Source of the DNA: Paracoccus suum
GTDB lineage: Bacteria; Pseudomonadota; Alphaproteobacteria; Rhodobacterales; Rhodobacteraceae
Length of the DNA stretch: 32,000 nucleotides
Assembly: GCF_003324675.1 (NCBI RefSeq)
Contig: NZ_CP030918.1
Span: forward strand, 3,060,001-3,092,000
Direction: 5' to 3'
In this document: piece after piece, positions 1,444 through 32,000 of the stretch
Numbering within the stretch: the stretch's first letter is position 1
How the letters are laid out: each line of letters starts with the position of its first letter
The notes under the pieces: model-generated
Database searches by the model: none
Told to the model about the DNA's origin: nothing
The model's input: the letters and a program-made list of their open reading frames with translations, nothing else
Position numbers and translations under genes: made by a program

Positions 1444-2438
1444 AGCGAGGCCCCGACCATCAGCGCCACGTCCACCAGACGGTGCGCGTAGCCCATCTCG
1501 TTGTCGTACCAGGCGTAGATCTTCACCTGGGTGCCATTCACGACCATGGTCGAGGGCGCGTCAATGATGCCCGATCGTGTGTCGTTGGTGTAATCGGCGG
1601 AGACAAGCGGGCGCTCTTCATAGCCGAGGATGCCCTTGAGCGGACCTCTCGCGGCGGCCTTGAACAGTTCGTTGACCTCCTCCGGCGTCGTCGGTCGCTC
1701 CACCTCGAACACGCAATCGGTGATCGAGGCGTTCAGCAGGGGCACGCGGATGGCATGGCCGTTCAGTCTGCCCTTCAGTTCCGGATAGATCAGCGTGATC
1801 GCGGTGGCGCTCCCCGTGGTGGTCGGGATCAGCGAATTGAGCGCCGAACGCGCTCGTCGCAGATCCTTGGCGGGGCGGTCCACGATGGTCTGCGTATTGG
1901 TCACGTCATGGATCGTGGTGATCGATCCATGCCGGATGCCGATGGCTTCGTGGATCACCTTCACGACCGGGGCGAGGCAGTTGGTCGTGCAGCTTGCCGC
2001 CGTGATGATCCGGTGTTCGGCCGGATCGTAGATGTCGTGATTGACGCCATAGACGATGTTTGCCGCGCCACCGTCCTTGACCGGGGCCGAGACAACCACC
2101 TTCTTCACCCCCGCCTCGAAATACGGAGCCAATTTCGCTTCGGATTTGAAGACGCCGGTGCAGTCGATGACCACATCAACTCCCGCGAGCGGCAACTCGG
2201 ACAGGTCTTTCCTTCCGATGAAAGGCAGCCGCGTGCCGTCGATGGTGACGCTCTCCGCGTCGTGCGAGAACGCCGCATCCCACCGCCCATGCACGGTGTC
2301 GAACTCGAATAGATGCGCATGCATGGCTGGGTCGCCCACCGCGTCATTGATCCAGGCGATCTCCGCTTCGCGTTCAAGAAGCGGCTTGAGGGCAAGCTTT
2401 CCCATGCGGCCGAGGCCGTTCAGAGCATAGACGGTCAT
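1440..2438 (-). CDS. gap: Glyceraldehyde-3-phosphate dehydrogenase, ars-operon-associated copy
   Basis: 332 aa. N-terminal Rossmann motif NGLGRMGK and catalytic SCTTNCLAP motif. ATGA overlap with the upstream arsR-arsC gene and GTGA overlap with arsJ. Confidence 0.9.
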
Positions 2439-3280
2439 GCGGGCGCTCCGGCATCCTTACGGCCGAGGTCGTCCACGGCCTTTTGCAGCGAGATGCGGTC
2501 CAGCGAGGCGACGGGCAGCGCCGAAAATGCCTTGATGCGGTTGTGCAGCGCCCCATAGGTCTGTTGGAACGCGAGGCTCTTTTCTGCGTGAGTACCTTCG
2601 GCCTTCACCGGATCGGGCATGCCCCAATGCGCGCTGACGGGCTGGCCGCTCCATGCCGGACACTCCTCGTTCGCGGCCTGATTGCAGACCGTAAAGACAA
2701 AATCGAACCTCGCTGCGGCCGGCCCTTGAAACTCACCCACATTCTTCGATCGCAGGACCGAGACATCGTGCCCCTTCTGCTCCAGCACCTCGAGGGCAAA
2801 CGGGTTCAGCTCCGAGTGGGGCCGGGTACCGGCGGAATATGCCTCGAACCGATCGCCTGCCTCCTTGCGGAGGATGGCTTCGGCGAAGATCGAGCGGGCG
2901 GAGTTTCCGGTGCAGATGAACAGCACCTTGTACTTGCGGTCGGACATGCCGGTGGTTCCTGATATCGTTGGCAGGGAGACGGGCGCGCAGAGATCGGGTC
3001 GACCGCGGCAGCAGTCGAGGATGAGATAGTCGAAGGTGCGGCGCACCTCGGCCATGGCGATGGAATAGCGGAGCGAGGTTCCCACCCGCTCCTGCGTCAC
3101 CAGCCCCGCCTGCATCAGCGCGGAGAGATAGGCCGACAGTGTCGACGCCTTGAGGTCCAGCGCATCGGCGATCTCACCCGCTGGCACCCTGTCCGGATAG
3201 CGCCGCATGAGCAGCCGGAAGAGGGCGAGACGCTGCGGGTGGCCCAAGGTCGACAGGCGGGAGGGAATCATTTCTTCCAT
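2435..3280 (-). CDS. ArsR-family HTH repressor fused to an LMW-PTP-type (thioredoxin-coupled) arsenate reductase ArsC
   Basis: N-terminal winged-helix region ([11 protein letters not shown]...[25 protein letters not shown]). Cys cluster [11 protein letters not shown] in the linker. C-terminal LMW phosphatase fold with the CTGNSARS P-loop and the second Cys pair [12 protein letters not shown]. An alternative start is possible at the second Met (3271). Confidence 0.85.
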
Positions 3281-5733: not shown

Positions 5734-5781
5734 TCAACGACCGCGACGATGCATGATGCGCGGTCAGCAGGAGGCGAACCC

Positions 5782-6769
5782 ATGTCGATGTCTCACGGCA
5801 GCCATACGGGCCACCTGCCCGCGAGCGGTGATCGCAAAGCGCTTGTCATCTCCGGCTGGCTCACCGGCCTTTACTTCATCGTTGAACTCGGGATCGGCAT
5901 CTGGACGGGCTCAGTCGCCGTCATGTCGGATGCCTTCCACACCTTCTCGGCCGTCGGCGGCGTGCTCATCGCCTTGGTCGCCATGCGCCTGAGCGAGCGG
6001 AAGTCCAGCCCGGCGCGCACCTTCGGCTACATTCGCGCGGAGATCCTCGGCGCCCTCTTCAACGGCCTCTTTCTCGTCGGAATGGCCATTTTCGTGCTGT
6101 GGATGGGCGCGATGCGCCTCATGGAGCCGATCGAGTTGGCCACCACGCCGATGCTGATCGCGGCAGCGGGGGGCATCGCCACCGAGCTTGTCGCCCTCTG
6201 GCTCCTGTACGAGCGCCAGAAGGACAACCTGAACATGCGGGGCGCCTACTGGCACATCCTGCAGACGTTCGTCGGCAGCTTCCTCATCATCATCTCGGCC
6301 CTGGTGATCCGCTTTACCGGCTTCCTCGCCGTCGACCCGCTGCTCGGCATGGCCTTCGGACTGGTGCTGCTCTGGGCTTCCTTGGGGCATCCTGCGCGAG
6401 TCGCTGCACATCCTGCTGCAAGGCACGCCGGAGGACCTGGATCTCGAGGCTGTGATCGCGGCCATTCGGGAGCTGGAGGGCGTGACGGACGTGCATCACG
6501 TCCATGCCTGGAGCCTGACGTCCGGGCGCAACGTGTTCTCGAGCCACGTCTGCGTTCGAGACTGGCAGGATGGCGAGCGGGTGCTGAGGGAGGTGAACAA
6601 CCTCCTGCGCGACCGGTTCAAGGTCTACTTCTCGACCACGCAGATCGAGGAATACTGCCTTGCCGTTGAGGAGGGAGCTGCCGAGATCGATGTTACGCGG
6701 CCGAAGGCGAAGTCCCGGCAGGCCGTGCGGGCAAGACCGGAAGAAGGGAGCGCCCAGCATGAACACTGA
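5782..6769 (+). pseudogene. czcD: Cation diffusion facilitator (CzcD-like) transporter interrupted by a +1 frameshift near 6381-6384
   Basis: The N-terminal 200 aa (frame of 5749..6669) carry CDF TM motifs (SVAVMSDAFHTFSAV, GYIRAEILGALFNG, AYWHILQTFVGS). After GLVLLWAS the frame turns into Arg/Gly junk. The next frame reads WGILRESLHILLQGTPEDLDLEAVIAAIRELEGVTDVHHVHAWSL..., the canonical CDF C-terminal domain (ORF 6452..6769). AGGAGG RBS before the ATG at 5782. Confidence 0.8.
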
Positions 6770-18600: not shown

Positions 18601-19583
18601 CGGCTGACGAGGAAAGCATCGGCGCGGCTGACGCCGTTCACCGACCAAGTGGCAGGCGTGGTCGACTTGGCCGACACCTCGACGCCCGGCCGCACCTTGC
18701 AGGATCCCGCGCGCAGATCATCGCCGAACCACGCCACCACGAGGCTGACGCTCTCGACCGCAGGCGCCATCGCCTGCAGCCGGTCGAGCGCCTCCACCAT
18801 GTCCGTGGAGTCGGCCAGCGCGTTCAGGTTCTCGGGCACCGTCGCGCCGCCGCTACCCTTGCGAATGGCGTCGGTGGCATAGGTGAACTCGCCCGAGGCC
18901 GGGATCAGGGTGACGGCGCGGGTCAGCCCCTCGGCGGTGTCGGGATCGGCGAGCGGGCGGAAGACCTCGAAGGACAGCTGCGGCAGCCGGTTGCCATAGG
19001 TCGAGAGCGCTAGTTCCTCGAAGACCACATAGGCCGTGCCGCGATAGGCCGGCGTGCTGGCCGCGCCCATCTTCGCCGCGATGAACGGGTCCGCAGTCTG
19101 CGTCTCGTCGCCGGGATACCAGCGCCAGGTGACGCCGGAGAGGTCCATCGGCTTGCCGTCGGCCCAGATGCGGCCGATGCCGGTGATCGGGCCCTCGCAG
19201 AGCGCCACGGCGAAGCTGGCGTAGTACAGATACTCGGTCGTCTTGACCTTGCCGCCCCCGCCACCCTTGCCGCCGCCCTGCGTTGTGGTCTTCGTCTCCT
19301 CGCGGAAATCGGTCGCCCAGATGATGTTGCCGCCCATGCGCATCCGGCCATAGAGCCGCGGAATCACCGCGCCCTCGGTGGCCGAGGTGATGCGCAGCGT
19401 GTCGAGCCGCGCACCCTCGATGCGTTGCGTCGGCGCCAGCGACGAGATGATCCAGCTGTCGACGACCGAGCCGATGCTCGAGCCGATGAAGCCGCCGATG
19501 GTGGCGGCGCTGACGCCGAGGATCGCGCCGCCGATGCTGCCGCCAATGGCGGCGCCGGCTGCGCCGAGGACAAGCGTGGCCAT
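15618..19583 (-). CDS. RcGTA g15-like host-specificity / central tail fibre protein (lambda gpJ analogue)
   Basis: 1321 aa. Gly-rich hydrophobic N-terminus (MATLVLGAAGAAIGGSIGGAILG), then RIEGARLDTLRITSATEGAVIPRLYGRMRMGGNIIWATDF and a central glycoside-hydrolase-like TIM-barrel region, typical of RcGTA ORFg15 homologues. Position follows the g14-like gene. Confidence 0.9.
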   Translation of the reverse strand: MATLVLGAAGAAIGGSIGGAILGVSAATIGGFIGSSIGSVVDSWIISSLAPTQRIEGARLDTLRITSATEGAVIPRLYGRMRMGGNIIWATDFREETKTTTQGGGKGGGGGKVKTTEYLYYASFAVALCEGPITGIGRIWADGKPMDLSGVTWRWYPGDETQTADPFIAAKMGAASTPAYRGTAYVVFEELALSTYGNRLPQLSFEVFRPLADPDTAEGLTRAVTLIPASGEFTYATDAIRKGSGGATVPENLNALADSTDMVEALDRLQAMAPAVESVSLVVAWFGDDLRAGSCKVRPGVEVSAKSTTPATWSVNGVSRADAFLVSRDDQDRPVYGGTPSDFAVVQAIQEMKARGLRVTFYPFILMDVPPGNTLPNPYSDNAAETGQPAFPWRGRITCSPAAGYAGTVDKTATAASQVAALFGAATPASFSVSGQSVSWTGPSGDWGLRRMVLHYAHLCAAAGGVDAFLIGTEMPGLTTIRSGASTYPAVQAYRDLLADVRSILGSGTKIGYAADWSEYFGHQPGDGSGDVFFHLDPLWADPEIDFVGIDNYMPLSDWRDGFEHADAAEGWPAIYDRAYLQGNIAGGEGFDWFYASAVDRSAQVRTPIADGAASKPWVFRYKDLRAWWSNAHYNRPGGVESGTATAWAPQSKPIWFTELGCPAIDRGTNQPNVFFDPKSSESFTPHFSRGWRDDAIQRAYLEATCLWWGDAANNPLSSVYGGRMVHVPECAAWTWDARPYPFFPALTDVWTDGANWRLGHWLTRRLGAVSLAALVRHLCLRAGLPEARVDVTGLWGAVEGYAITALESPRASITTLSRHFGFDAVETEGVIRFVMRGRASVATLAPDELVAAREGDVLELTRGQETELPQALKWQVARADEDYDAALVEARRITVDTTRIASESFPMAVPPEEAERRCRRALMEAWVGRETAAFRLPPSRLALDPADAIRLAHDGRLVDLRLVSIADAEARGIEAVRQDRATYDLPPGDPRAASLTRAVVFGAPDAVLMDLPQLTEDQPAHRPFAAAHAVPWPGEMAVFRSPSTDGFELLTTFGTRARLGTLVSDFFAGPTSRFDLGNALVVDLLTGTLESVTDLTLFGGANALAIESAPGVWEIVQASAAELLAPGRYRLTRLLRGQRGTEGAMGNPAPAGVRVVVLDTALASLPIAEADLGIPWNWRIGPASRPISDETYVGQTFTPEGVGLRPFSVAHVEQPWRRPRAPGDLTIRWTRRSRALAADSWGGLEVPLAEELEAYEIEILDGFAVKRVLSATTTSAVYTAAQQTADWGGPLDPGDTLDIRIYQLSALVGRGAPKTATLLF

Positions 19584-19592
19584 GTCGGGGTC

Positions 19593-20039
19593 TCAGCGTT
19601 GCGGGAACAGGAAGGCGAAGGCGATGCGCCGCCGCCATGACGGGGTGAGCGGCTCCTCGATCACGCCGAGCCGTTCATAGGCGTGAAGGAAGGTGTCGGG
19701 CCCGGTGAGGATCCCGACATGCTTCGCGATGGCACGCGGCTTCATGCGGAAGAGGACCAGCGTTCCGGGACCGGCCTCCGCCGGGTCCACCTCGATCATC
19801 ATGCGCCGCGCGCCCTCGGCCAGCACCTCGCGCGGACCGGTCTCGCCCCAGTCGCGGCTGTAGGCAGGGATCGGGAACGGCTCGGGGCCGACGACCTCGC
19901 GCCAGACGCCCCGCGCCAGCCCGAGGCAATCGCAGCCGACTCCGCGCAAGCTGGCCTGGTCGTGGTAGGGTGTGCCCAGCCAGGAGCGTGCGATGGTGAT
20001 GACGCGCGCGGGGTCGGCTGATGCGAGAGGTTGCGTCAC
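19593..20039 (-). CDS. NlpC/P60-family cell-wall peptidase (RcGTA g14-like, lambda gpK analogue)
   Basis: 148 aa. WLGTPYHDQASLRGVGCDCLGLARGVW holds the catalytic Cys and AKHVGIL the His. GTG start in a GTGA overlap with the g13-like stop. Confidence 0.9.
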   Translation of the reverse strand: MTQPLASADPARVITIARSWLGTPYHDQASLRGVGCDCLGLARGVWREVVGPEPFPIPAYSRDWGETGPREVLAEGARRMMIEVDPAEAGPGTLVLFRMKPRAIAKHVGILTGPDTFLHAYERLGVIEEPLTPSWRRRIAFAFLFPQR

Positions 20040-20920
20040 AGCACGCCTCCCTCGTGTCCGCCATCCTTGGTGGCATAGCGCAGCACGGCGTCCTGGCCGG
20101 GGATGTGCGGGAAGCCGCGGAAGTTGGGGGTGTTCGCGAACTTGGCGCCGCAGGTCTCCATGCGCTTGTCGCAGCCCGCACGGATGGTGAAGCCGTCGTC
20201 CTCGGCGATGGACCGCACCGGCGCCTCCAGCAGGGTCAGGATCGCCACGCCGTCGGTCACCTCATGGCCCAGCACCTCGGTGCGCCGCCCCGCGTTCGCA
20301 CCGTTCGTCCAGTCCAGCGTGCCGAAGGTGAACCAGCCGGAGGCGAACCCGCCGAGCCCCGAGGCGGTGAAGGCCCGGTCGCGCAGCAGATCGATGACGC
20401 TACCAGTGCCCTTGAAGGCGGGATCCTCCAGATCGACCTCGCAGCGCGCATCTCCGAGCGCGGCGTCGCAGCTCGCCTGGAAGGTCCGCCCGACCGTCTG
20501 GCCCAGCACATGGGCGAGCGATCGGACCTCCGCGACGAAGGCCAGCCGGCCGCGCCGGATCTGGCCGATGGCCCCGCGGCGCATCAGCACGCGCTGGCTG
20601 GTGTCGGCCCAGTTCGCCCGCCAGACCTCGACCTCGGCGTTGTCCCAGCGGCCGTCGAGGATGTCGGTCTCGGTGATCCGGTCGGAGGTCAGCACGCCCT
20701 CGGCGTCCTGCGCATCGACCGACAGGTCCGAGCCCGAGCGGACCTCGGAGGCCGTCAATCCGCTCTCGGGCTCGAAACCGGTCCCATCGAAGGCGAGCGT
20801 CCGGTCGTGGTCGGTGAAGCCGAAGGTGACGGCGTCGGCGCGGCTGATGCGCCAGCACCAGGCGAGCGTCGTCGTGCCGTCGTCGAGATGGGCCTGCAGT
20901 GAGGGGTCGAGGGTCTTCAT
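20036..20920 (-). CDS. RcGTA g13-like tail hub protein (DUF2163 plus BR0599-type C-terminal domain, lambda gpL analogue)
   Basis: 294 aa. LQAHLDDGTTTLAWCWRISRADAVTFGFTDHDRTLAFDG... and the C-terminal CDKRMETCGAKFANTPNFRGFPHIPG motif are typical of this family. Confidence 0.9.
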   Translation of the reverse strand: MKTLDPSLQAHLDDGTTTLAWCWRISRADAVTFGFTDHDRTLAFDGTGFEPESGLTASEVRSGSDLSVDAQDAEGVLTSDRITETDILDGRWDNAEVEVWRANWADTSQRVLMRRGAIGQIRRGRLAFVAEVRSLAHVLGQTVGRTFQASCDAALGDARCEVDLEDPAFKGTGSVIDLLRDRAFTASGLGGFASGWFTFGTLDWTNGANAGRRTEVLGHEVTDGVAILTLLEAPVRSIAEDDGFTIRAGCDKRMETCGAKFANTPNFRGFPHIPGQDAVLRYATKDGGHEGGVL

Positions 20921-25747: not shown

Positions 25748-26167
25748 TCAGGCCAGTTGGTCGGCCGTCGAATAGTGCAGCACCACCGGGATGACGGCCG
25801 CCTTCAGGCTGGCCGCGCCATCGACCGGCAGATCGACCGCCTGCGGGGCTTCGGCCTCGACCCAGTCGCAGAGGCCGCCGAGTGTGCGGTCGGCTGCGAG
25901 CGCCGTGCCGATGCTGGCGCAGAGGGCGTCGAAGGTGGCGTCACGATCGGCGCCTTGTACGACCGCCTCGATCTCGGCCCGGTGCTGGTAGTGGTAGCGC
26001 AGGGGCGACAGCGTCACCTCGGGCTCGCCGGGATCACCGTCGCGCAGGATCAGCAGCCCTTCGGCCGGGACGCGCTCGGGCAGCACCTCGCCGCGCAGGG
26101 CGGTGGGGGGCAACGCCGAGAGCCGCACATGCAGTGCGGCGAGGATGGTCTCGCGGGCGGTAGGCAT
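25748..26167 (-). CDS. Tail terminator / tail completion protein (gpU-like)
   Basis: 139 aa. Position and size match lambda gpU. N-terminus RETILAALHVRLSAL. GAGGGA RBS retained upstream. Confidence 0.55.
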   Translation of the reverse strand: MPTARETILAALHVRLSALPPTALRGEVLPERVPAEGLLILRDGDPGEPEVTLSPLRYHYQHRAEIEAVVQGADRDATFDALCASIGTALAADRTLGGLCDWVEAEAPQAVDLPVDGAASLKAAVIPVVLHYSTADQLA

Positions 26168-26282
26168 TCCAATCCCTCTTACGTTCTGACCCCGCCGAGC
26201 CAGCCAAGCTGTTGTACTGTCTCGCAGGATCGCCGATCATCACGACAACACCTTCATCTCTCCGTATTCGCGACCCGCCCGA

Positions 26283-26303
26283 CGGTTCAACCGATGCGAA
26301 CCG
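26283..26303 (+). promoter_or_regulatory. Candidate operator: inverted repeat CGGTTC-N9-GAACCG, 14 nt upstream of the cargo transporter ATG
   Basis: cggttcaaccgatgcgaaccg, in the lower-GC 149-nt divergent gap between the U-like phage gene and the transporter gene. Confidence 0.25.
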
Positions 26304-26316
26304 ACAGGATTTCTGA

Positions 26317-27273
26317 ATGACGCGCCTCGATCTTGAGCGGCAACAGGTCTGGATCTATCTTGCCGCCATCCTGGCAGGGCTGGGCTTGGGTCTGGTGCTG
26401 CCGGGGGCCGCCGCACATCTCGAGGCGGCGCTCTGGCCGCTTCTCGGCATCCTGATTTTCGTGACCTTCACGCAGGTGCCGCTGATCCATCTGCCGGAGG
26501 CGTTCCGCGACCGGCGCTTCATGGGGGCGATGCTCGCGGGCAACTTCGTGATCGTTCCGCTGATTGTGGCGGGGCTGCTGTTGTTCCTGCCCCAGGATCC
26601 GGCGGTCCGGCTGGGTGTTCTCCTCGTGCTGCTCGTCCCCTGCACGGACTGGTACATCACCTTCACTCATCTGGCGGGGGGCGATGCCGGCCGTGCGATC
26701 GCCGCCACGCCGGTGAACCTGATCGTGCAGATGGCATTGCTGCCCGTCTACCTGTGGTTGTTCATGGGCACGGCCTTCCTGGAGATCTTCGCGGTCGGAC
26801 CCATCGTGACCGTTTTCCTGACGCTGATCGTGGCGCCGCTGGTGGCGGCATGGGCCCTCGAGCGATGGGCCGAGGCCCGATCCGGCCGGGACGCGCTGAT
26901 CGAGCGTCTTGCCTGGTTCCCGGTACCGCTGCTTGCGCTGGTCGTCTTTCTGATCGCAGCAAGCCAGGTGCAATCGGTGACCGCCTCCCTTCCGGTCTTG
27001 CCGCAGGTGACGGGCGTGTTCGTCGGCTTCCTCGTGCTCGCCCTGTTCGCAGGACTTGCGATAACACGGGCGCTAGATCTCCCGGCGCGATCAGGACGCG
27101 CGCTGGTGTTCAGCCTTGGCACACGCAATTCCTTCGTCGTGCTGCCGCTGGCGCTGGCCCTGCCGCCGGAGTGGCGGCTGGCCATCGTGGTCATCGTGTT
27201 TCAGTCACTCGTCGAACTGTTGGGCGTGCTGGTGTACCTCAAGGCGGTGCCGCGTCTTCTGCCCGAAAGATAA
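26317..27273 (+). CDS. ACR3/BASS-superfamily transporter of the type usually annotated 'arsenic resistance protein', cargo gene inside the phage late operon
   Basis: 318 aa, about 10 TM helices. The N-terminus LERQQVWIYLAAILAGLGLGLVLPG parallels the ACR3 N-terminus at 1-169 ([25 protein letters not shown]). Contains VPCTDWYITFTHLAGGD. AGGA RBS. Confidence 0.8.
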   Translation: MTRLDLERQQVWIYLAAILAGLGLGLVLPGAAAHLEAALWPLLGILIFVTFTQVPLIHLPEAFRDRRFMGAMLAGNFVIVPLIVAGLLLFLPQDPAVRLGVLLVLLVPCTDWYITFTHLAGGDAGRAIAATPVNLIVQMALLPVYLWLFMGTAFLEIFAVGPIVTVFLTLIVAPLVAAWALERWAEARSGRDALIERLAWFPVPLLALVVFLIAASQVQSVTASLPVLPQVTGVFVGFLVLALFAGLAITRALDLPARSGRALVFSLGTRNSFVVLPLALALPPEWRLAIVVIVFQSLVELLGVLVYLKAVPRLLPER

Positions 27274-27322
27274 GCAAGCTATGTTGGGAAATCGAGCGGA
27301 ACCCCTCGCCAGAAGCAATGCA

Positions 27323-27541
27323 ATGACCGATCAACAACCGATTCTCATCAGTACCATCGCGTGTCCGGACTGCGGTTACTCGAAAAGCGAGACCATGCCG
27401 ACAGAGGCATGCCAGTGGTTCTATGAGTGCGCGGGTTGCGGTAAGCTGCTGAAGCCGAAGCCCGGCGATTGCTGTGTCTATTGCTCTTGGGGCACCGTCC
27501 CCTGTCCTCCGATCCAGGCAGGCAAGGGATGCTGCGGCTGA
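27323..27541 (+). CDS. GDCCVxC-motif small Cys-rich metal-binding protein
   Basis: 72 aa. CPDCG...CAGCG zinc-ribbon-like pairs and the C-terminal KPGDCCVYCSWGTVPCPP motif. Lies 50 nt after the transporter stop on the same strand. Confidence 0.8.
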   Translation: MTDQQPILISTIACPDCGYSKSETMPTEACQWFYECAGCGKLLKPKPGDCCVYCSWGTVPCPPIQAGKGCCG

Positions 27542-27562
27542 TGGACTGACTGATCAACTCTC

Positions 27563-28192
27563 TCAAACGCGCCCCTCCACCCAGTTCGCCACGATCAGTC
27601 CCGGCACCGCATCGCGCGCCTGCTCCGCGTCCCGCGCGAGGTCCAGCCGCTTCTTCAGCCTGACCTGCGGGACAAGCAGGAAGACCGGCACGGTGGTGAG
27701 CCCCCGGCCGGTCTTCGAGCGCGACGCCACCGCGCGACCCTTGGTGTTCAGCCGCCCCTCGGCAACCAGCAGGCTCGGGCCCCTGCGCCGATAGACGAAG
27801 CGCAGGCGCAATCCGGTGCGGCGCTCCCATTCGCCGGGGGTGATCCGGCCGCCGCGGAGGGACTTGCCGGCCGCGGCCGCGGGGATCGCCAGCCAGAAAC
27901 CGTCCTTCGAGCGGATCAGCGGCCCCGTGTCGTGAGCGCCGACGATGACCGGGGCCTTCGACCAGACCAGCGCGGCGGCGTTCAGGCTGGCCCGGCCTTT
28001 CGGGAACTGCTCGGACCGGATGGTGCGGGCGAGCCGCGCCCCCAGCCCCGCGCCGGTGATCTGGGCGCGCCAGGCGGTCTTCAGCCCTGTGCTGGCCTCG
28101 CGCATTGCGGCGGTCACCGCCTTCTCCCCGGCCAGCGTTTCCGCCTCCATGATCCGGGCGATATCGCCGACGATGTCGACGCCGAGTTTCAT
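27563..28192 (-). CDS. Tail completion protein (gpZ / HK97 gp10-like)
   Basis: 209 aa. ATGA overlap with the FII-like gene. Basic C-terminal half. Size and position match lambda gpZ. Weak by-eye resemblance in the N-terminal helix (AVTAAMREASTGLKTAW). Confidence 0.5.
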   Translation of the reverse strand: MKLGVDIVGDIARIMEAETLAGEKAVTAAMREASTGLKTAWRAQITGAGLGARLARTIRSEQFPKGRASLNAAALVWSKAPVIVGAHDTGPLIRSKDGFWLAIPAAAAGKSLRGGRITPGEWERRTGLRLRFVYRRRGPSLLVAEGRLNTKGRAVASRSKTGRGLTTVPVFLLVPQVRLKKRLDLARDAEQARDAVPGLIVANWVEGRV

Positions 28193-29908: not shown

Positions 29909-30946
29909 TCATCCTTTCAGCCTGAAGGTGCGGGCGACGATCTCGCCCCAGGGGCGGGTTCCCGTTGGGCGCCCCGGTTGCGCGTGATGGCCGGCAATCT
30001 CGGGCTCAGCCTCGGCTTTCGCTGCGAGCAGTGCGGCGCGGACGTGATCGAGGTCCGCATCGCTTTCCAGAAAACGCCCGGCCATCTGCGGCTGTCCGGC
30101 CAGCCGGCAGAGATCGACGACGGCGCGGGCGTGCGTGATGGCCTCGGCGCGGATCGCCGCGGGATCGGGCGGTGCGCCGCCGGACGGTGGCGTCTCGGCC
30201 GGCGGGTGTTGGGCGTTCGTCCCGGCGATCTCGTCTTCGCCGGCGCCAGAAGCCTCATCGCTCTCCGCGGCCGCGCCTGTGGCCTCGTCGGCATCGGCGC
30301 CGGCGCCGTCGTTGTCGTCACCGTCGTCGCCGCCGCTGTCGGTTGCAGCCGCGACCGCTTCCGCCAGCGCCGGCGGCGCGTTGCGGAAGCGCGCGAAATC
30401 GAAGCGCGCAGCGATCCGCACCGGTTCGGCAAGCCGGTCGGCAAAGCCGAGCGCCAGCGCCTCGCGCGCATCCAGCCAGGTCTCGGCGGCCATCAGCGCC
30501 GCAATCTCGTCGATCGAGCGGCCGGATTTGGCGGCATAGCCGGCAGCGAGGCTGCCACCCACCTTGTCCAGCGCCTCGGCCATGGCCCGCATGTCGGCGG
30601 CCGTGCCCATCACGAGGCCGGCGGGGTCGTGGATCATCAGGAAGGCATTTTCCGGCATGACGATCTCGTCGCCCGCCATGGCGACATAGGAGGCCGCCGA
30701 GGCGGCGACGCCGTCGATCCAGACGGTGACCGTGCCCGCATGCCGCTTCAGCGCGTTGTGGATCGCCACGGCGTCGAAGACCGAGCCGCCGGGGCTGTTG
30801 AGCCGCAGATCGATGGGCGTGCCCTCGGGCAGCGCGCCGAGTTCCGCAAGGAACCCCTTGGCCGAGACCCCGCAGGCCCCGATCTCGTCATAGATCGCCA
30901 CTTCCGCGCCGGTGGCCCGGGCGCGGATCGCATACCAGCTTGCCAT
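29909..30946 (-). CDS. ClpP/S49-type head maturation protease fused to an acidic, scaffold-like C-terminal half (lambda gpC/Nu3 analogue)
   Basis: 345 aa from ATG 30946 with an AGGAG RBS. LRLNSPGGSVFDAVAIHNAL...IDGVAASAASYVAMAGDEIVMPENAFLMIHDP is a ClpP-fold protease core. An Asp/Gly/Ala-rich low-complexity linker and a helical C-terminus follow. Confidence 0.9.
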   Translation of the reverse strand: MASWYAIRARATGAEVAIYDEIGACGVSAKGFLAELGALPEGTPIDLRLNSPGGSVFDAVAIHNALKRHAGTVTVWIDGVAASAASYVAMAGDEIVMPENAFLMIHDPAGLVMGTAADMRAMAEALDKVGGSLAAGYAAKSGRSIDEIAALMAAETWLDAREALALGFADRLAEPVRIAARFDFARFRNAPPALAEAVAAATDSGGDDGDDNDGAGADADEATGAAAESDEASGAGEDEIAGTNAQHPPAETPPSGGAPPDPAAIRAEAITHARAVVDLCRLAGQPQMAGRFLESDADLDHVRAALLAAKAEAEPEIAGHHAQPGRPTGTRPWGEIVARTFRLKG

Positions 30947-30950
30947 GCTC

Positions 30951-32000
30951 TCACTCCTGTTCGGTGGCGGACTCGGTCGCAGCGGCGTCGCCGTGCTCAT
31001 GCTCGCGGGCCCCATCACCGGGATCCGGCTGCGTCGCGGGCGTCGCCCGTGCCCCCTGCGTCTCGCCGGAGCCGGTGCGGTAGCTGAGACCGAGCGCCGC
31101 GGCGCGTGCCGCATCGGCCGCGTTCTCGCGGTCCACTTCCTCGATGTCGTAGCCGGTGGCCTCGACCACCTTGCGGCGCGAGGTGATGCCCGCCCCCATC
31201 GCCAGCACCTGTGCCTGGATGTCCTTCAGCGGATCGACCCAGTCCCAGCGCGGCGGGATCCACTGCACCGGCCGCGCCGCCGCGGGATCGTCGAGACCGA
31301 GCGCGCCGGAGAGCGCGGCCGCCTCCAGCCATCGCCGCCAGACCGCCCGGCAGAGCTGGTGCACGATCACGCCATGCTGCAGCTGGCCGATGCGGCGCCG
31401 GAACTCGACCAGCTCCGCCCTGAGGCTCGAATAGTTCGCCTGCCGGACATCCCCGGTGACCAGGTGATACGGCAGCCCCAGCGAGGCGGAGACCGCGAGC
31501 AGCGTCCGGTACTGGAACGCCTCGTAGCCGCCGCCCACGTCGGCGGGCGCGGAGAACTTCACGTCCTCGCCTGGCAGCAGCACCTGCATCGTCCCGGGCT
31601 CGAGGCTGGCGATGGCCGCGCCATTGAGGTCCGCTTCGACCTCGCCCAGCATCGGCTCTTCCGGGGCGGTCTTGGTGATGAAGCCCGCGAACATCGCCGC
31701 GGTCTTCTTCCGGTCCAGCTCGGCGTCGTCATACTGGTCGAGCAGGAACAGCCGCACCATCGCCGGTGCGACATGCGGCAGCCCCCGGATCTGGCCGGCG
31801 TCGATGGGCCGATAGATGTGCAGCACATCCGCGGCGGGTACGCGCACCGTCTCCGGGATCACGTCGCCGATGACCCGGCCGCCCTGATCGGTGCTGTCGC
31901 CCGGGTGACGGCGGCGGAAGTGATAGGCCACGCGGCGGCCGATGCTGTCGAACTCGATCCCGCAGCGGATACGGCTGCCCGATGGCAGCACCTCCGTCTT
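30951..32000 (-). CDS. Portal protein (lambda gpB family), C-terminal about 349 codons; the 5' end lies beyond the window
   Basis: RGLPHVAPAMVRLFLLDQYDDAELDRKKTAAMFAGFITK and WIPPRWDWVDPLKD motifs. The reading frame is open to position 32000, and the ORF-track start at 31991 is an internal GTG. Confidence 0.9.
   Translation of the reverse strand, partial: KTEVLPSGSRIRCGIEFDSIGRRVAYHFRRRHPGDSTDQGGRVIGDVIPETVRVPAADVLHIYRPIDAGQIRGLPHVAPAMVRLFLLDQYDDAELDRKKTAAMFAGFITKTAPEEPMLGEVEADLNGAAIASLEPGTMQVLLPGEDVKFSAPADVGGGYEAFQYRTLLAVSASLGLPYHLVTGDVRQANYSSLRAELVEFRRRIGQLQHGVIVHQLCRAVWRRWLEAAALSGALGLDDPAAARPVQWIPPRWDWVDPLKDIQAQVLAMGAGITSRRKVVEATGYDIEEVDRENAADAARAAALGLSYRTGSGETQGARATPATQPDPGDGAREHEHGDAAATESATEQE

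What the first reader, a model, noticed from the sequence alone, without database searches (positions are those of the whole stretch)
26168..27562. Opposite-strand metal(loid) cargo (transporter plus GDCCVxC protein) wedged into the phage head-tail operon
The minus-strand morphogenesis genes are tightly coupled, but between the gpZ-like gene (stop 27563) and the gpU-like gene (start 26167) lies a 1.4 kb plus-strand insert. It encodes an ACR3/BASS-like transporter and a 72-aa GDCCVxC Cys-rich protein. The insert has its own lower-GC upstream region with a CGGTTC-N9-GAACCG palindrome. No phage ORF is disrupted, and the U-like gene keeps its RBS. Late transcription must therefore read about 1.4 kb antisense through the cargo. 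Morons usually sit at operon ends or near lysis and immunity genes, so an antisense resistance-type pair between Z and U is atypical. It also gives this locus a third metal(loid) module besides ars and cop. Substrate is unknown; arsenite, mercury or another thiophilic species are all possible.
Basis: partly seen in the sequence, partly recalled or inferred. Interest (0 to 1): 0.75.

Follow-up and report, generated by a model that had tools for sequence, protein, structure and literature searches.

The report
Metal-resistance cargo in phage hotspot
Two host-benefit genes, an arsenite-pump-like transporter and a small cysteine-rich metal-binding protein, sit in a slot between two tail genes where nearly every related prophage carries some foreign cargo, and the transporter in this same prophage was already published in 2019.

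Summary
Between the minus-strand DUF6441 (lambda Z position) gene and the tail-terminator (U) gene lie two plus-strand genes. One is a 318-aa SBF-fold transporter. The other is a 72-aa GDCCVxC-domain protein.

The placement is not atypical. In 78 of 79 phages of this lineage, Z and U are separated by 447-4059 bp of highly variable cargo. That cargo includes toxin-antitoxins, nucleases, chromate genes and mercury genes, and most of it is on the opposite strand.

The window's prophage belongs to the vB_PcoS_PD6/vB_PsaS_PD20 group. Decewicz et al. [quoted passage not shown] They left the 72-aa gene as hypothetical.

The transporter is not a true ACR3 (42 bits against a cutoff of 283). It does keep the ACR3 TM4 Cys and TM9 Glu. 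Its relatives sit beside mer operons, MerR-family regulators or ars clusters. GDCCVxC genes usually follow MerT- or MerF-like genes.

Both genes are under purifying selection (dN/dS about 0.15-0.23). The CGGTTC-N9-GAACCG palindrome is at chance level.

Best reading: lysogenic-conversion cargo for a thiophilic metal(loid). Hg or another soft metal is slightly favoured over As(III). The substrate is untested. Interest is modest.

The parts
25748..26167 (-). Tail terminator gene (lambda U position), 139 aa. It forms the conserved right-hand flank of the cargo slot.
   Evidence: phrog_4204 'tail terminator' 5e-44. It lies upstream of Phage_tube_2. GAGG RBS is retained. It is 84-91% identical in lineage relatives.
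26168..26316 (.). 149-bp low-GC (57%) intergenic region. It holds the U RBS, the AGGA RBS of the transporter and presumably the cargo promoter. It also contains the chance-level palindrome at 26283-26303.
   Evidence: It is 86-93% identical among four diverged phage copies, although synonymous divergence of the neighbouring genes is 0.33-0.47. No consensus sigma-70 promoter was found. The palindrome is not significant. No Rfam hit or stable fold.
26317..27273 (+). 318-aa SBF/BART-fold transporter of an ACR3-sister clade that NCBI names 'arsenic resistance protein'.
   Evidence: Pfam SBF 57.8 bits and SBF_like 39.1. NCBIfam acr3 scores only 42.3 against a cutoff of 282.8. P108-C109-T110, G122 and E300 are invariant, including in a bona fide ACR3. 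dN/dS is 0.14-0.18. It corresponds to pd6_p36 'ArsB' of Decewicz 2019.
27274..27322 (.). 49-bp spacer between the two cargo genes on the same strand. They are probably one transcript.
   Evidence: The spacer is homologous in all four pair-bearing phage copies: window, L193, L198 and L202. No terminator-like site lies in the spacer.
27323..27541 (+). 72-aa cytosolic GDCCVxC-domain protein with 11 Cys. It has an N-terminal CxxC...CxxC zinc-ribbon-like half and a C-terminal GDCCVYC...C...CC half.
   Evidence: NF041374 scores 102.4 bits against a cutoff of 40. Alignment A1 has 10 invariant Cys columns and an 11th nearly invariant. There is a weak zinc-ribbon profile match. dN/dS is 0.16-0.23. It corresponds to pd6_p35 'phage hypothetical protein'.
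27542..27562 (.). 21-bp spacer between the convergent stop codons of the GDCCVxC gene and the Z-like gene. This is the left boundary of the slot.
   Evidence: The boundary is homologous in pair-bearing phages and partly in phages carrying GDCCVxC alone. Across the lineage, variable DNA begins directly after the Z stop.
27563..28192 (-). DUF6441 gene (lambda Z position, after the FII-like Phage_attach gene), 209 aa. It forms the conserved left-hand flank of the slot.
   Evidence: Pfam DUF6441 162.6 bits. phrog_6367. Annotated 'minor tail protein' in Rhodobacter phages.

Best explanation
The 1.4-kb insert is lysogenic-conversion cargo (a moron cassette). It occupies the standard hypervariable slot of a widespread lineage of Rhodobacterales lambda-like siphoviruses, directly between the stop codon of the Z-position gene (DUF6441) and the RBS of the tail-terminator gene.

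Shown:
- The slot is filled in almost every lineage member with unrelated accessory genes, mostly on the opposite strand.
- The transporter sits at the U-proximal end of the slot. Its synonymous divergence is similar to that of the neighbouring U gene.
- GDCCVxC sits at the Z-proximal end.
- Each gene also occurs in the slot without the other, so the window's cassette is a union of the two modules.
- Both genes are under purifying selection.

Inferred:
- The cassette is expressed in the lysogen from its own conserved 149-bp upstream region and benefits the host, not the virion.
- It gives tolerance to a thiophilic metal(loid). The ACR3-like transporter retains the TM4 Cys and TM9 Glu that ACR3 needs, so it would export a thiol-reactive species.
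- The cytosolic 11-Cys GDCCVxC protein would bind the same species and buffer it or hand it to the pump, in the way ArsD or CopZ serve their pumps.

My split for the substrate is about 0.4 Hg(II) or another soft metal (as a thiolate), about 0.3 As(III)/Sb(III) and about 0.3 something else or two independent functions. Phage late transcription presumably reads through the slot antisense to the cargo, as it must in most relatives.

The confidence of 0.6 is for the statement as a whole. The hotspot-cargo part alone I put at about 0.9, a thiophilic metal(loid) function at about 0.6 and the binder-to-pump hand-off at about 0.3.
For: Hotspot:
- 78 of 79 lineage loci have 447-4059 bp (median 942) between Z and U. 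Conservation ends at the Z stop and resumes at the U RBS.
- The 118 cargo ORFs fall into 89 clusters. Pfam hits include ParE/RHH, HTH plus Peptidase_M78, RNAse_A_bac, HNH, PLDc_2, ChrA plus ChrB, MerT plus MerR, TauE and rve.
- 46 GC3-supported cargo ORFs are on the opposite strand and 22 on the same strand.

Modularity:
- Transporter without GDCCVxC occurs in Tabrizicola (with an MFS gene) and in Maliponia (with merR-merTPF-merA; MerA 516 bits against a cutoff of 454).
- GDCCVxC without the transporter, with ParDE, occurs in L100 and L188-L192. It abuts Z in 10 IMG/VR contigs.
- The pair occurs in four diverged copies that share both spacers.

Selection: dN/dS is 0.14-0.18 for the transporter and 0.16-0.23 for GDCCVxC. 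The transporter's dS (0.33-0.47) is close to that of U (0.33-0.42).

Metal link for the transporter:
- The PCT Cys and the Glu are invariant, including in ACR3.
- Homologs at 62-64% identity on Rhodobacterales plasmids sit next to merR-merT-merP-merF-merA in Tni-type transposons in 4 of the 5 examined.
- Homologs at 50-53% identity are co-transcribed with MerR-family regulators.
- A 45% homolog lies downstream of a MerR-family gene beside an ars cluster. A 51% homolog lies beside arsC/arsR/arsJ.

Metal link for GDCCVxC:
- 39 of 76 genome loci have an adjacent MerT- or MerF-like gene, and 27 of 80 have a MerR-family regulator.
- It occurs on 352 plasmids, next to merF, merT, merA and HMA genes, and once directly after ACR3 in an ars operon.
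- In L079 the arrangement is merR-merT-merP-GDCCVxC, convergent with merR2-transporter.
Against: - No experiment exists for either family. No paper in the searched library mentions GDCCVxC.
- No regulator, promoter or terminator could be identified in the insert.
- The tandem same-strand pair is seen only in phages. This fits chance juxtaposition of two independent morons as well as it fits a functional couple.
- The mer-linked plasmid copies are probably one transposon family, which counts as one evolutionary event. Several of those copies look frameshifted (780 nt plus 132 nt).
- Close homologs also occur with no metal genes nearby, or next to chromate or TauE genes.
- An exporter has no role in the canonical mer pathway.
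- The MerT-like neighbours of GDCCVxC score below the curated MerT cutoffs (27-29 bits against 32.9 in Pfam and 150 in NCBIfam).
Confidence: 0.6

Rival explanations
1. It is a plain arsenite/antimonite resistance moron. The transporter is a divergent ACR3-type As(III) pump, as annotated ('ArsB') by Decewicz et al. GDCCVxC acts as an ArsD-like As(III) chaperone.
For: ACR3 is the nearest characterised family, and the TM4 Cys and TM9 Glu are conserved. NCBI, JGI and the published annotation all say arsenic. A 51% homolog lies beside arsC-arsC-arsR-GAPDH-arsJ. 40-45% homologs lie in ars islands. GDCCVxC follows ACR3 inside an ars operon on Sulfuricella pSCD.
Against: The protein scores 42 bits against the 283-bit ACR3 cutoff and is 23% identical to a true ACR3. 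In Rhodococcus it coexists with a real ACR3 in the same cluster, which suggests a different substrate. Where a dedicated regulator is present it is MerR-family, not ArsR. To my knowledge MerR regulators sense metal cations, not arsenite. The closest non-phage mobile copies and one prophage copy flank mer operons. GDCCVxC's dominant partners are MerT- or MerF-like.
Confidence: 0.3
2. They are two unrelated morons that merely ended up adjacent through recombination within the slot. Each acts alone and possibly on a different substrate. GDCCVxC might be a metal sponge or redox protein, and the transporter might move something unrelated to metals (an organic anion, as in BASS transporters).
For: Each gene occurs in the slot without the other. 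In genomes they are almost never neighbours: 3 of 80, and then convergent, not tandem. The transporter keeps its own boundary-linked upstream region, and GDCCVxC keeps its own Z-linked boundary. 70-89% homologs of the transporter sit beside TauE or ChrBA or stand alone.
Against: The tandem pair, with its 49-bp spacer, has persisted through about 10% (transporter) and about 20% (GDCCVxC) protein divergence on four phage backbones. Both families independently associate with thiophilic-metal loci. The ACR3 Cys/Glu pair argues against a bile-acid-type substrate.
Confidence: 0.25
3. The insert serves the phage rather than the host. For example it could act as a spacer or regulatory element that uncouples head-completion and tail gene expression through convergent transcription, or the proteins could act in superinfection exclusion.
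For: The slot is filled in nearly all relatives whatever the content, and mostly antisense. This could hint that the phage tolerates or exploits an interruption there. Morons inside tail clusters with exclusion functions exist in other phages (own knowledge: HK97 gp15).
Against: Slot content is unrelated between relatives, and one lineage member plus all cultured distant relatives have Z and U overlapping. Both proteins are ordinary cellular families found mainly on chromosomes and plasmids in metal islands. Purifying selection acts on the protein sequences.
Confidence: 0.05

Closest known systems
Prophages vB_PcoS_PD6 (Paracoccus contaminans RKI) and vB_PsaS_PD20 (P. sanguinis), Decewicz et al. 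2019, Sci Rep 9:7899 (PMC6536676)
   Same: It is the same phage group. DNA is 100% identical to CP020612 over window 20.5-30.5 kb, including the whole insert. The gene geometry is identical: 630 nt, 21 bp, 219 nt, 49 bp, 957 nt, 149 bp, 420 nt. [quoted passage not shown]
   Different: The paper treats the transporter as ArsB/ACR3 and leaves the 72-aa gene as 'phage hypothetical protein'. It does not describe the slot as a lineage-wide hotspot, the mer association or the GDCCVxC identity. The window's copy differs in mosaic blocks at about 19-20.5 kb and beyond 30.5 kb.
Phage morons and diversity hotspots (lambda/HK97 morons; P2-type hotspots of accessory and defence genes)
   Same: It is an insertion between genes that are adjacent in relatives. 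Its base composition differs, it is often on the opposite strand, the flanks are conserved and the content turns over rapidly. The content includes toxin-antitoxin, nuclease and resistance genes.
   Different: The site is Z/U, inside the head-tail joining and tail module, in a Rhodobacterales lineage. No promoter or terminator pair could be demonstrated. Metal-resistance cargo (mer, chr and this cassette) is prominent here.
ACR3 arsenite efflux permease (TIGR00832; BART superfamily)
   Same: It shares the SBF/BART fold family. The aligned PCT Cys (TM4), the GD motif and the TM9 Glu are conserved. It occurs in metal(loid) islands.
   Different: It is 23% identical and scores 42 bits against a 283-bit cutoff. 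It is shorter (318 against about 355 aa). Its dedicated regulators are MerR-family where present, and it frequently neighbours mer genes.
mer operons and small cytosolic or periplasmic Hg-binding partners (MerP, the NmerA domain of MerA)
   Same: GDCCVxC is encoded directly after MerT/MerP or MerF-like uptake genes under MerR-family control in about half of loci. This is the position expected for a cytosolic acceptor of Hg(II). Some family members are selenoproteins, per the NCBIfam family name.
   Different: The window's cassette has no MerR, MerT, MerP or MerA. GDCCVxC has no HMA fold. Its model suggests a zinc-ribbon-like N-terminal half and has no significant PDB match.
Metallochaperone-pump pairs (ArsD-ArsAB, CopZ-CopA)
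   Same: The inferred logic is the same: a small cytosolic Cys-rich binder is encoded next to an exporter for the same thiophilic species.
   Different: There is no homology to ArsD or CopZ, the pump is a secondary carrier and no interaction has been shown.

Membership tests
ACR3 arsenite efflux transporter (NCBIfam TIGR00832 equivalog) | Whole-protein score at or above the curated cutoff (282.8 bits) | tested here: not met
   42.3 bits, E = 5.8e-11. 23% identity to the ACR3 of Sulfuricella pSCD.
ACR3 arsenite efflux transporter (NCBIfam TIGR00832 equivalog) | Conserved TM4 cysteine and TM9 glutamate, required for As(III) transport in CgAcr3/AmAcr3 (own knowledge of the mutagenesis literature) | tested here: met
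   C109 (in P-C-T) and E300 are invariant across the clade and the bona fide ACR3 in alignment A4.
ACR3 arsenite efflux transporter (NCBIfam TIGR00832 equivalog) | Arsenite or antimonite efflux activity | not testable with these tools
   Needs MIC and transport assays.
ACR3 arsenite efflux transporter (NCBIfam TIGR00832 equivalog) | ars operon context (ArsR, ArsC) | tested here: not met
   No ars gene is in the insert. Some 40-51% homologs are next to ars genes, and others are next to mer or MerR genes.
SBF / bile-acid:Na+ symporter fold (Pfam PF01758, PF13593) | Score above the Pfam gathering thresholds | tested here: met
   SBF 57.8 bits (cutoff 24.3). SBF_like 39.1 bits (cutoff 25). Weak matches to solved BASS/ASBT structures.
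GDCCVxC domain-containing (seleno)protein (NCBIfam NF041374) | Score above cutoff, plus the GDCCVxC motif and the N-terminal CxxC | tested here: met
   102.4 bits against a cutoff of 40, covering 57 of 58 model positions. G48-D49-C50-C51-V52-Y-C54 and C14xxC17 are invariant in A1.
mer (mercury resistance) operon | MerR regulator, MerT/MerP (or MerC/MerF) uptake and MerA reductase | tested here: not met
   None of these is in the window's insert. A complete set sits in the same slot next to the 89%-identical transporter in the Maliponia prophage.
Phage moron (Hendrix/Juhala sense) | Present between two genes that are adjacent in related phages | tested here: met
   Z and U overlap by 4 bp in RcKemmy and Sc-Yong805-1, and overlap in L135.
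Phage moron (Hendrix/Juhala sense) | Nucleotide composition differs from the neighbours | tested here: met
   GC is 57-65.5% against 72%. GC3 is 0.70-0.82 against 0.87-0.91.
Phage moron (Hendrix/Juhala sense) | Own promoter and terminator, and expression from the prophage | tested here: inconclusive
   There is no consensus promoter, and no terminator-like site outside coding sequence. The 149-bp upstream region is about three times more conserved than synonymous sites, which suggests a constrained control region. Expression itself is not testable here.
Phage diversity hotspot | Conserved flanking genes with unrelated, rapidly exchanged content across many relatives | tested here: met
   78 of 79 loci are occupied. 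118 ORFs fall into 89 clusters. Conservation stops at the Z stop and resumes at the U RBS.

The most novel reading that the evidence does not exclude
The ACR3-sister transporter and the GDCCVxC protein together form an undescribed, MerA-independent resistance system based on export. A cytosolic Cys/Sec-rich acceptor hands Hg(II), or another soft metal or organometal, to a Cys-dependent secondary exporter. Temperate phages shuttle this system, alongside mer and chr modules, among Rhodobacterales through a dedicated Z/U cargo slot.
Probability: 0.15. Interest if true: 0.65.

Novelty: new member of a known kind. Interest (0 to 1): 0.35.

Why it matters
The wedged-in resistance gene is not a surprise, because it sits in a recombination hotspot and was already published. 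Three points have practical value.

1. The published and database label 'ArsB/arsenic resistance protein' is not secure. The clade fails the ACR3 threshold and travels with mer operons and MerR-type regulators.
2. The GDCCVxC family is found in at least 598 species-representative genomes, 352 plasmids and 63 viral contigs, and it has no experimental study. This prophage offers a minimal two-gene context in a culturable host (Paracoccus contaminans, P. sanguinis) in which to test it.
3. The Z/U slot of this phage lineage is a natural catalogue of lysogenic-conversion cargo (mer, chr, toxin-antitoxin, nucleases). It documents phage-borne spread of metal resistance in Rhodobacterales.

Tried and rejected
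- Palindrome as operator: rejected. It is at chance level, has an uncompensated arm mutation in L193 and is conserved only as part of a uniformly conserved region.
- Riboswitch or structured leader: no Rfam hit, and folding z = +1.16.
- Consensus promoter and terminator scan: nothing usable.
- Conserved transporter-GDCCVxC pairing in genomes: rejected, 3 of 80 loci.
- Cargo region more conserved than the phage backbone (a possible sign of recent module exchange): rejected. The whole 20.5-30.5 kb region is identical among the Paracoccus copies.
- Structure of GDCCVxC: the AlphaFold2 model is only moderate (pLDDT 71.5). Foldseek against the PDB gave no match with E below 1. The best hits are zinc-ribbon proteins. 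The profile against PDB sequences gave only a weak RNA polymerase II zinc-ribbon hit.
- Solved-structure search for the transporter: only distant BASS/ASBT matches.
- Deposited phage genomes: no DNA or GDCCVxC protein match, and one distant transporter hit in an unannotated faecal phage contig.
- Literature searches for GDCCVxC, for an SBF transporter in mer operons and for Z/U hotspots: nothing specific.
- tRNA or att site at the prophage end: no tRNA in the window.
- My first naive cargo ORF calls with a GC3 filter missed low-GC cargo. I repeated them without the filter.
Full report
**1. What is in the window**

The right-hand 19 kb of the window is the late region of a lambda-like siphovirus prophage on the minus strand. 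In order it encodes portal, ClpP-type protease, HDPD (gpD-like), Phage_cap_E, Phage_attach (FII-like), DUF6441, a 139-aa protein, Phage_tube_2, chaperones, tape measure, DUF2460, a GTA_TIM host-specificity protein, a DUF2793 fibre and an M15 endolysin.

By synteny with lambda (own knowledge of lambda gene order) DUF6441 is at the Z position. The 139-aa protein is the tail terminator (phrog_4204, 5e-44).

- 26317-27273: 318 aa, Pfam SBF 57.8 bits and SBF_like 39.1 bits.
- 27323-27541: 72 aa, NCBIfam GDCCVxC 102.4 bits against a cutoff of 40.

Z and U are intact, and U keeps a GAGG Shine-Dalgarno. The insert has lower GC than its flanks (57-65.5% against 72%). The left 13 kb of the window is chromosome. 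It carries arsJ, its GAPDH, an ArsR-ArsC fusion, a CDF transporter, a Cu P-type ATPase and adenylate kinase.

**2. The palindrome**

CGGTTC-N9-GAACCG is present at 26283-26303. One inverted repeat of this kind is what chance gives: 42% of simulated 149-bp sequences have at least one. In the homologous upstream region of L193 the right arm reads GAGCCG, with no compensating change. There is no Rfam match, and the leader does not fold better than shuffles. I therefore do not treat it as an operator.

The whole 149-bp region is 86-93% identical among four diverged phage copies. Synonymous sites of the adjacent genes have diverged by 0.33-0.47. The region as a whole is therefore constrained. It presumably contains the cargo promoter and both ribosome-binding sites. 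The consensus scan found no promoter.

**3. Is the placement unusual? No.**

More distant cultured relatives have the Z gene overlapping the next gene by 4 bp (the 11 RcKemmy-type Rhodobacter phages and Synechococcus phage Sc-Yong805-1). The insert is therefore a true insertion.

I then fetched 80 IMG/VR loci whose Z protein is 78-89% identical to the window's. Of 79 lineage loci that contain both genes (76 viral contigs, the window and two genomic prophages), 78 have 447-4059 bp between Z and U, with a median of 942 bp. Only L135 has the two genes overlapping. Sequence conservation stops at the Z stop codon and resumes at the U RBS.

The content is extremely diverse. The 118 ORFs fall into 89 clusters. 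Pfam hits include ParE/RHH toxin-antitoxins, HTH plus Peptidase_M78, CdiA-type RNase, HNH, PLD nucleases, ChrA plus ChrB, MerT plus MerR, TauE, LysR, QueC, BLUF and an IS integrase. Among ORFs with coding-type GC3, 46 are opposite to the structural genes and 22 are co-directional.

The Z/U junction is thus this lineage's regular cargo hotspot, and antisense cargo is the norm there.

**4. Already published**

The identical 318-aa protein is encoded in many assemblies (398 index blocks), always in this prophage. These include P. contaminans CP020612 at 2,606,228-2,627,184. That position lies inside prophage vB_PcoS_PD6 of Decewicz et al. 2019. [quoted passage not shown]

Their GenBank file has the same geometry as the window. 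It labels the 219-nt gene 'phage hypothetical protein'. The window is 100% identical to these copies from 20.5 to 30.5 kb. It differs only in mosaic blocks further out.

**5. The transporter**

It is not an ACR3 by the curated test: 42 bits against 283, and 23% identity to a genuine ACR3. It belongs to a sister clade that NCBI names 'arsenic resistance protein'. The P-C-T cysteine, the GD motif and the TM9 glutamate are invariant across the clade and in ACR3. These are the residues that mutagenesis showed to be essential in ACR3 (own knowledge). This points to a thiol-reactive substrate.

Contexts by identity to the window's protein:

| Identity | Where | Neighbours |
|---|---|---|
| 92% | same phage slot, Tabrizicola | an MFS gene, no GDCCVxC |
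| 89% | same phage slot, Maliponia | complete merR / merT-merP-merF-merA (MerA 516 bits, cutoff 454) |
| 89% | chromosome | ChrB/ChrA |
| 82% | chromosome | stand-alone |
| 70% | chromosome | TauE |
| 62-64% | Rhodobacterales plasmids, Tni-type transposons | convergent with merR-merTPF-merA in 4 of 5 examined; several copies apparently frameshifted |
| 50-53% | Burkholderiales | directly downstream of a MerR-family regulator gene that overlaps its start |
| 51% | plasmid | arsC/arsR/GAPDH/arsJ |
| 45% | Rhodococcus plasmid | after a MerR-family gene, next to a full ars cluster with its own ACR3 |
| 40-46% | plasmids | near merA, arsH/arsO, or nothing informative |

The family is therefore a metal(loid)-island transporter. 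Its dedicated regulators are of the cation-sensing MerR type.

**6. The GDCCVxC protein**

It has eleven cysteines in 72 residues, ten invariant and the eleventh nearly so. The N-terminal CxxC...CxxC half resembles a zinc ribbon. The AlphaFold2 model is moderate and has no significant PDB neighbour.

The family is widespread. A capped scan found at least 598 species-representative genomes. It also occurs on 352 plasmids and 63 IMG/VR contigs.

It is not normally next to the transporter: 3 of 80 loci. In 39 of 76 loci it directly follows a small MerT-like or MerF-like 'CC' membrane protein. In 27 of 80 loci a MerR-family regulator is nearby. In Bacteroidota it sits with CusAB-type genes. The MerT-like neighbours score below the curated MerT cutoffs, so 'mercury' is a lead, not a proof. 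Once it follows ACR3 inside an ars operon.

In L079 the arrangement is merR-merT-merP-GDCCVxC, convergent with merR2-transporter. No paper in the searched library mentions the family.

**7. How the cassette was assembled**

GDCCVxC abuts the Z stop, convergently, in 10 IMG/VR contigs and in L188-L192. In these it is usually accompanied by ParDE and lacks the transporter. The transporter, with its 149-bp upstream region, abuts U in phages without GDCCVxC.

The tandem pair occurs in four diverged copies: the window lineage, L193, L198 from a Phreatobacter MAG, and L202. These share the 49-bp spacer and the GDCCVxC-Z spacer.

dN/dS is 0.14-0.18 for the transporter and 0.16-0.23 for GDCCVxC. For comparison it is 0.17 for U and 0.31-0.34 for Z. 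The transporter's dS matches that of U. Both genes are therefore maintained by selection, and the transporter looks like a long-term resident of the slot. The window's cassette reads as the union of a U-end module and a Z-end module.

**8. Mechanism, with what is shown and what is inferred**

Shown:
- It is hotspot cargo with a modular origin.
- Both genes are under purifying selection.
- The transporter keeps the ACR3-type Cys/Glu.
- Both families are embedded in thiophilic-metal loci.

Inferred:
- The cassette is expressed from the prophage in lysogeny.
- The transporter exports a thiol-reactive metal(loid).
- GDCCVxC acts as a cytosolic binder or donor.

I put the substrate at about 0.4 Hg or another soft metal, 0.3 As/Sb and 0.3 other or independent functions. 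Late transcription presumably crosses the slot antisense, as in most relatives. This is untested.

**9. Verdict**

It is partly wrong: the position is not atypical, the palindrome is noise, the pair is not generally conserved and the transporter is not a true ACR3. The core of the finding is already in the literature.

What is new is modest:
- the identity of the second gene;
- the doubtful 'ArsB' label;
- the recognition of the Z/U slot as a lineage-wide hotspot rich in metal-resistance modules.

Noticed in passing
window 5749-6769: A cation-diffusion-facilitator gene appears split between two frames. Cation_efflux lies in ORF 5749-6669, and the ZT_dimer domain lies in the overlapping ORF 6452-6769. 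This could be a frameshift, a pseudogene or a sequencing error.
   Followed up: no
window 2435-3280: One ORF fuses an ArsR-type HTH to a low-molecular-weight-phosphatase-type arsenate reductase. It lies next to the ArsJ-associated GAPDH and arsJ (ArsJ 538 bits). The host locus is therefore an organoarsenical (1-arseno-3-phosphoglycerate) export module with no ACR3 in the window.
   Followed up: partly
collection-wide: The exact 318-aa transporter sequence is indexed in 398 sample blocks, always in this prophage where context could be read. It spans several Paracoccus species and many metagenomes. This is compatible with an active, recently spreading phage or with Paracoccus as a frequent contaminant.
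   Followed up: no
window 19000-20500 and 30500-32000: These are mosaic blocks. The window is 100% identical to PD6-type copies from 20.5 to 30.5 kb. Identity drops to 84-94% at the host-specificity/NlpC end and to 85-91% in the protease/portal region. This indicates recent recombination with related phages.
   Followed up: partly
L198 2197-2795, 7212-8054 and 8474-10398; L188 2643-3128: Related prophages have further cargo slots inside the structural module. Examples are a PIN toxin pair between the tape measure and the chaperone genes, a REase-ARP gene between the FII-like and cement genes, RHH/ParE plus a recombinase, and small opposite-strand ORFs.
   Followed up: no
L211, L220, L224, L242: More distant phages (Z about 36% identical, with Z and U adjacent) carry a MerT-like gene plus GDCCVxC about 1.7-2.5 kb to the far side of Z from U. 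GDCCVxC cargo has therefore entered phage structural modules at more than one site.
   Followed up: no
L181 1472-2464, L185 4501-5493, L186 2476-3468: In several Rhodobacterales mer transposons the transporter homolog is annotated as a 780-nt ORF plus a 132-nt ORF. It is probably frameshifted and decaying there, while the mer genes are intact.
   Followed up: no
L079 4857-7788: A merR-merT-merP-GDCCVxC operon, with no merA-like gene detected within 3.5 kb of GDCCVxC, lies convergent with a MerR-family-regulator-transporter operon. Import without a reductase, placed beside an ACR3-like exporter, is unexplained.
   Followed up: partly
L100 7682-8020; L188 6001-6309: In phages carrying GDCCVxC without the transporter, the gene has a conserved N-terminal extension of about 30-40 aa (RSLQ[ED]KLA.LDP.RR.RI...). 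This extension is absent from the 72-aa form.
   Followed up: no
L002 (Synechococcus phage Sc-Yong805-1) and PP438413 (Nostoc phage): Two phages deposited as cyanophages have Z proteins 62% identical to this Paracoccus prophage. They are closer than the Rhodobacter phages (47-49%), which is odd for cyanobacterial hosts.
   Followed up: no
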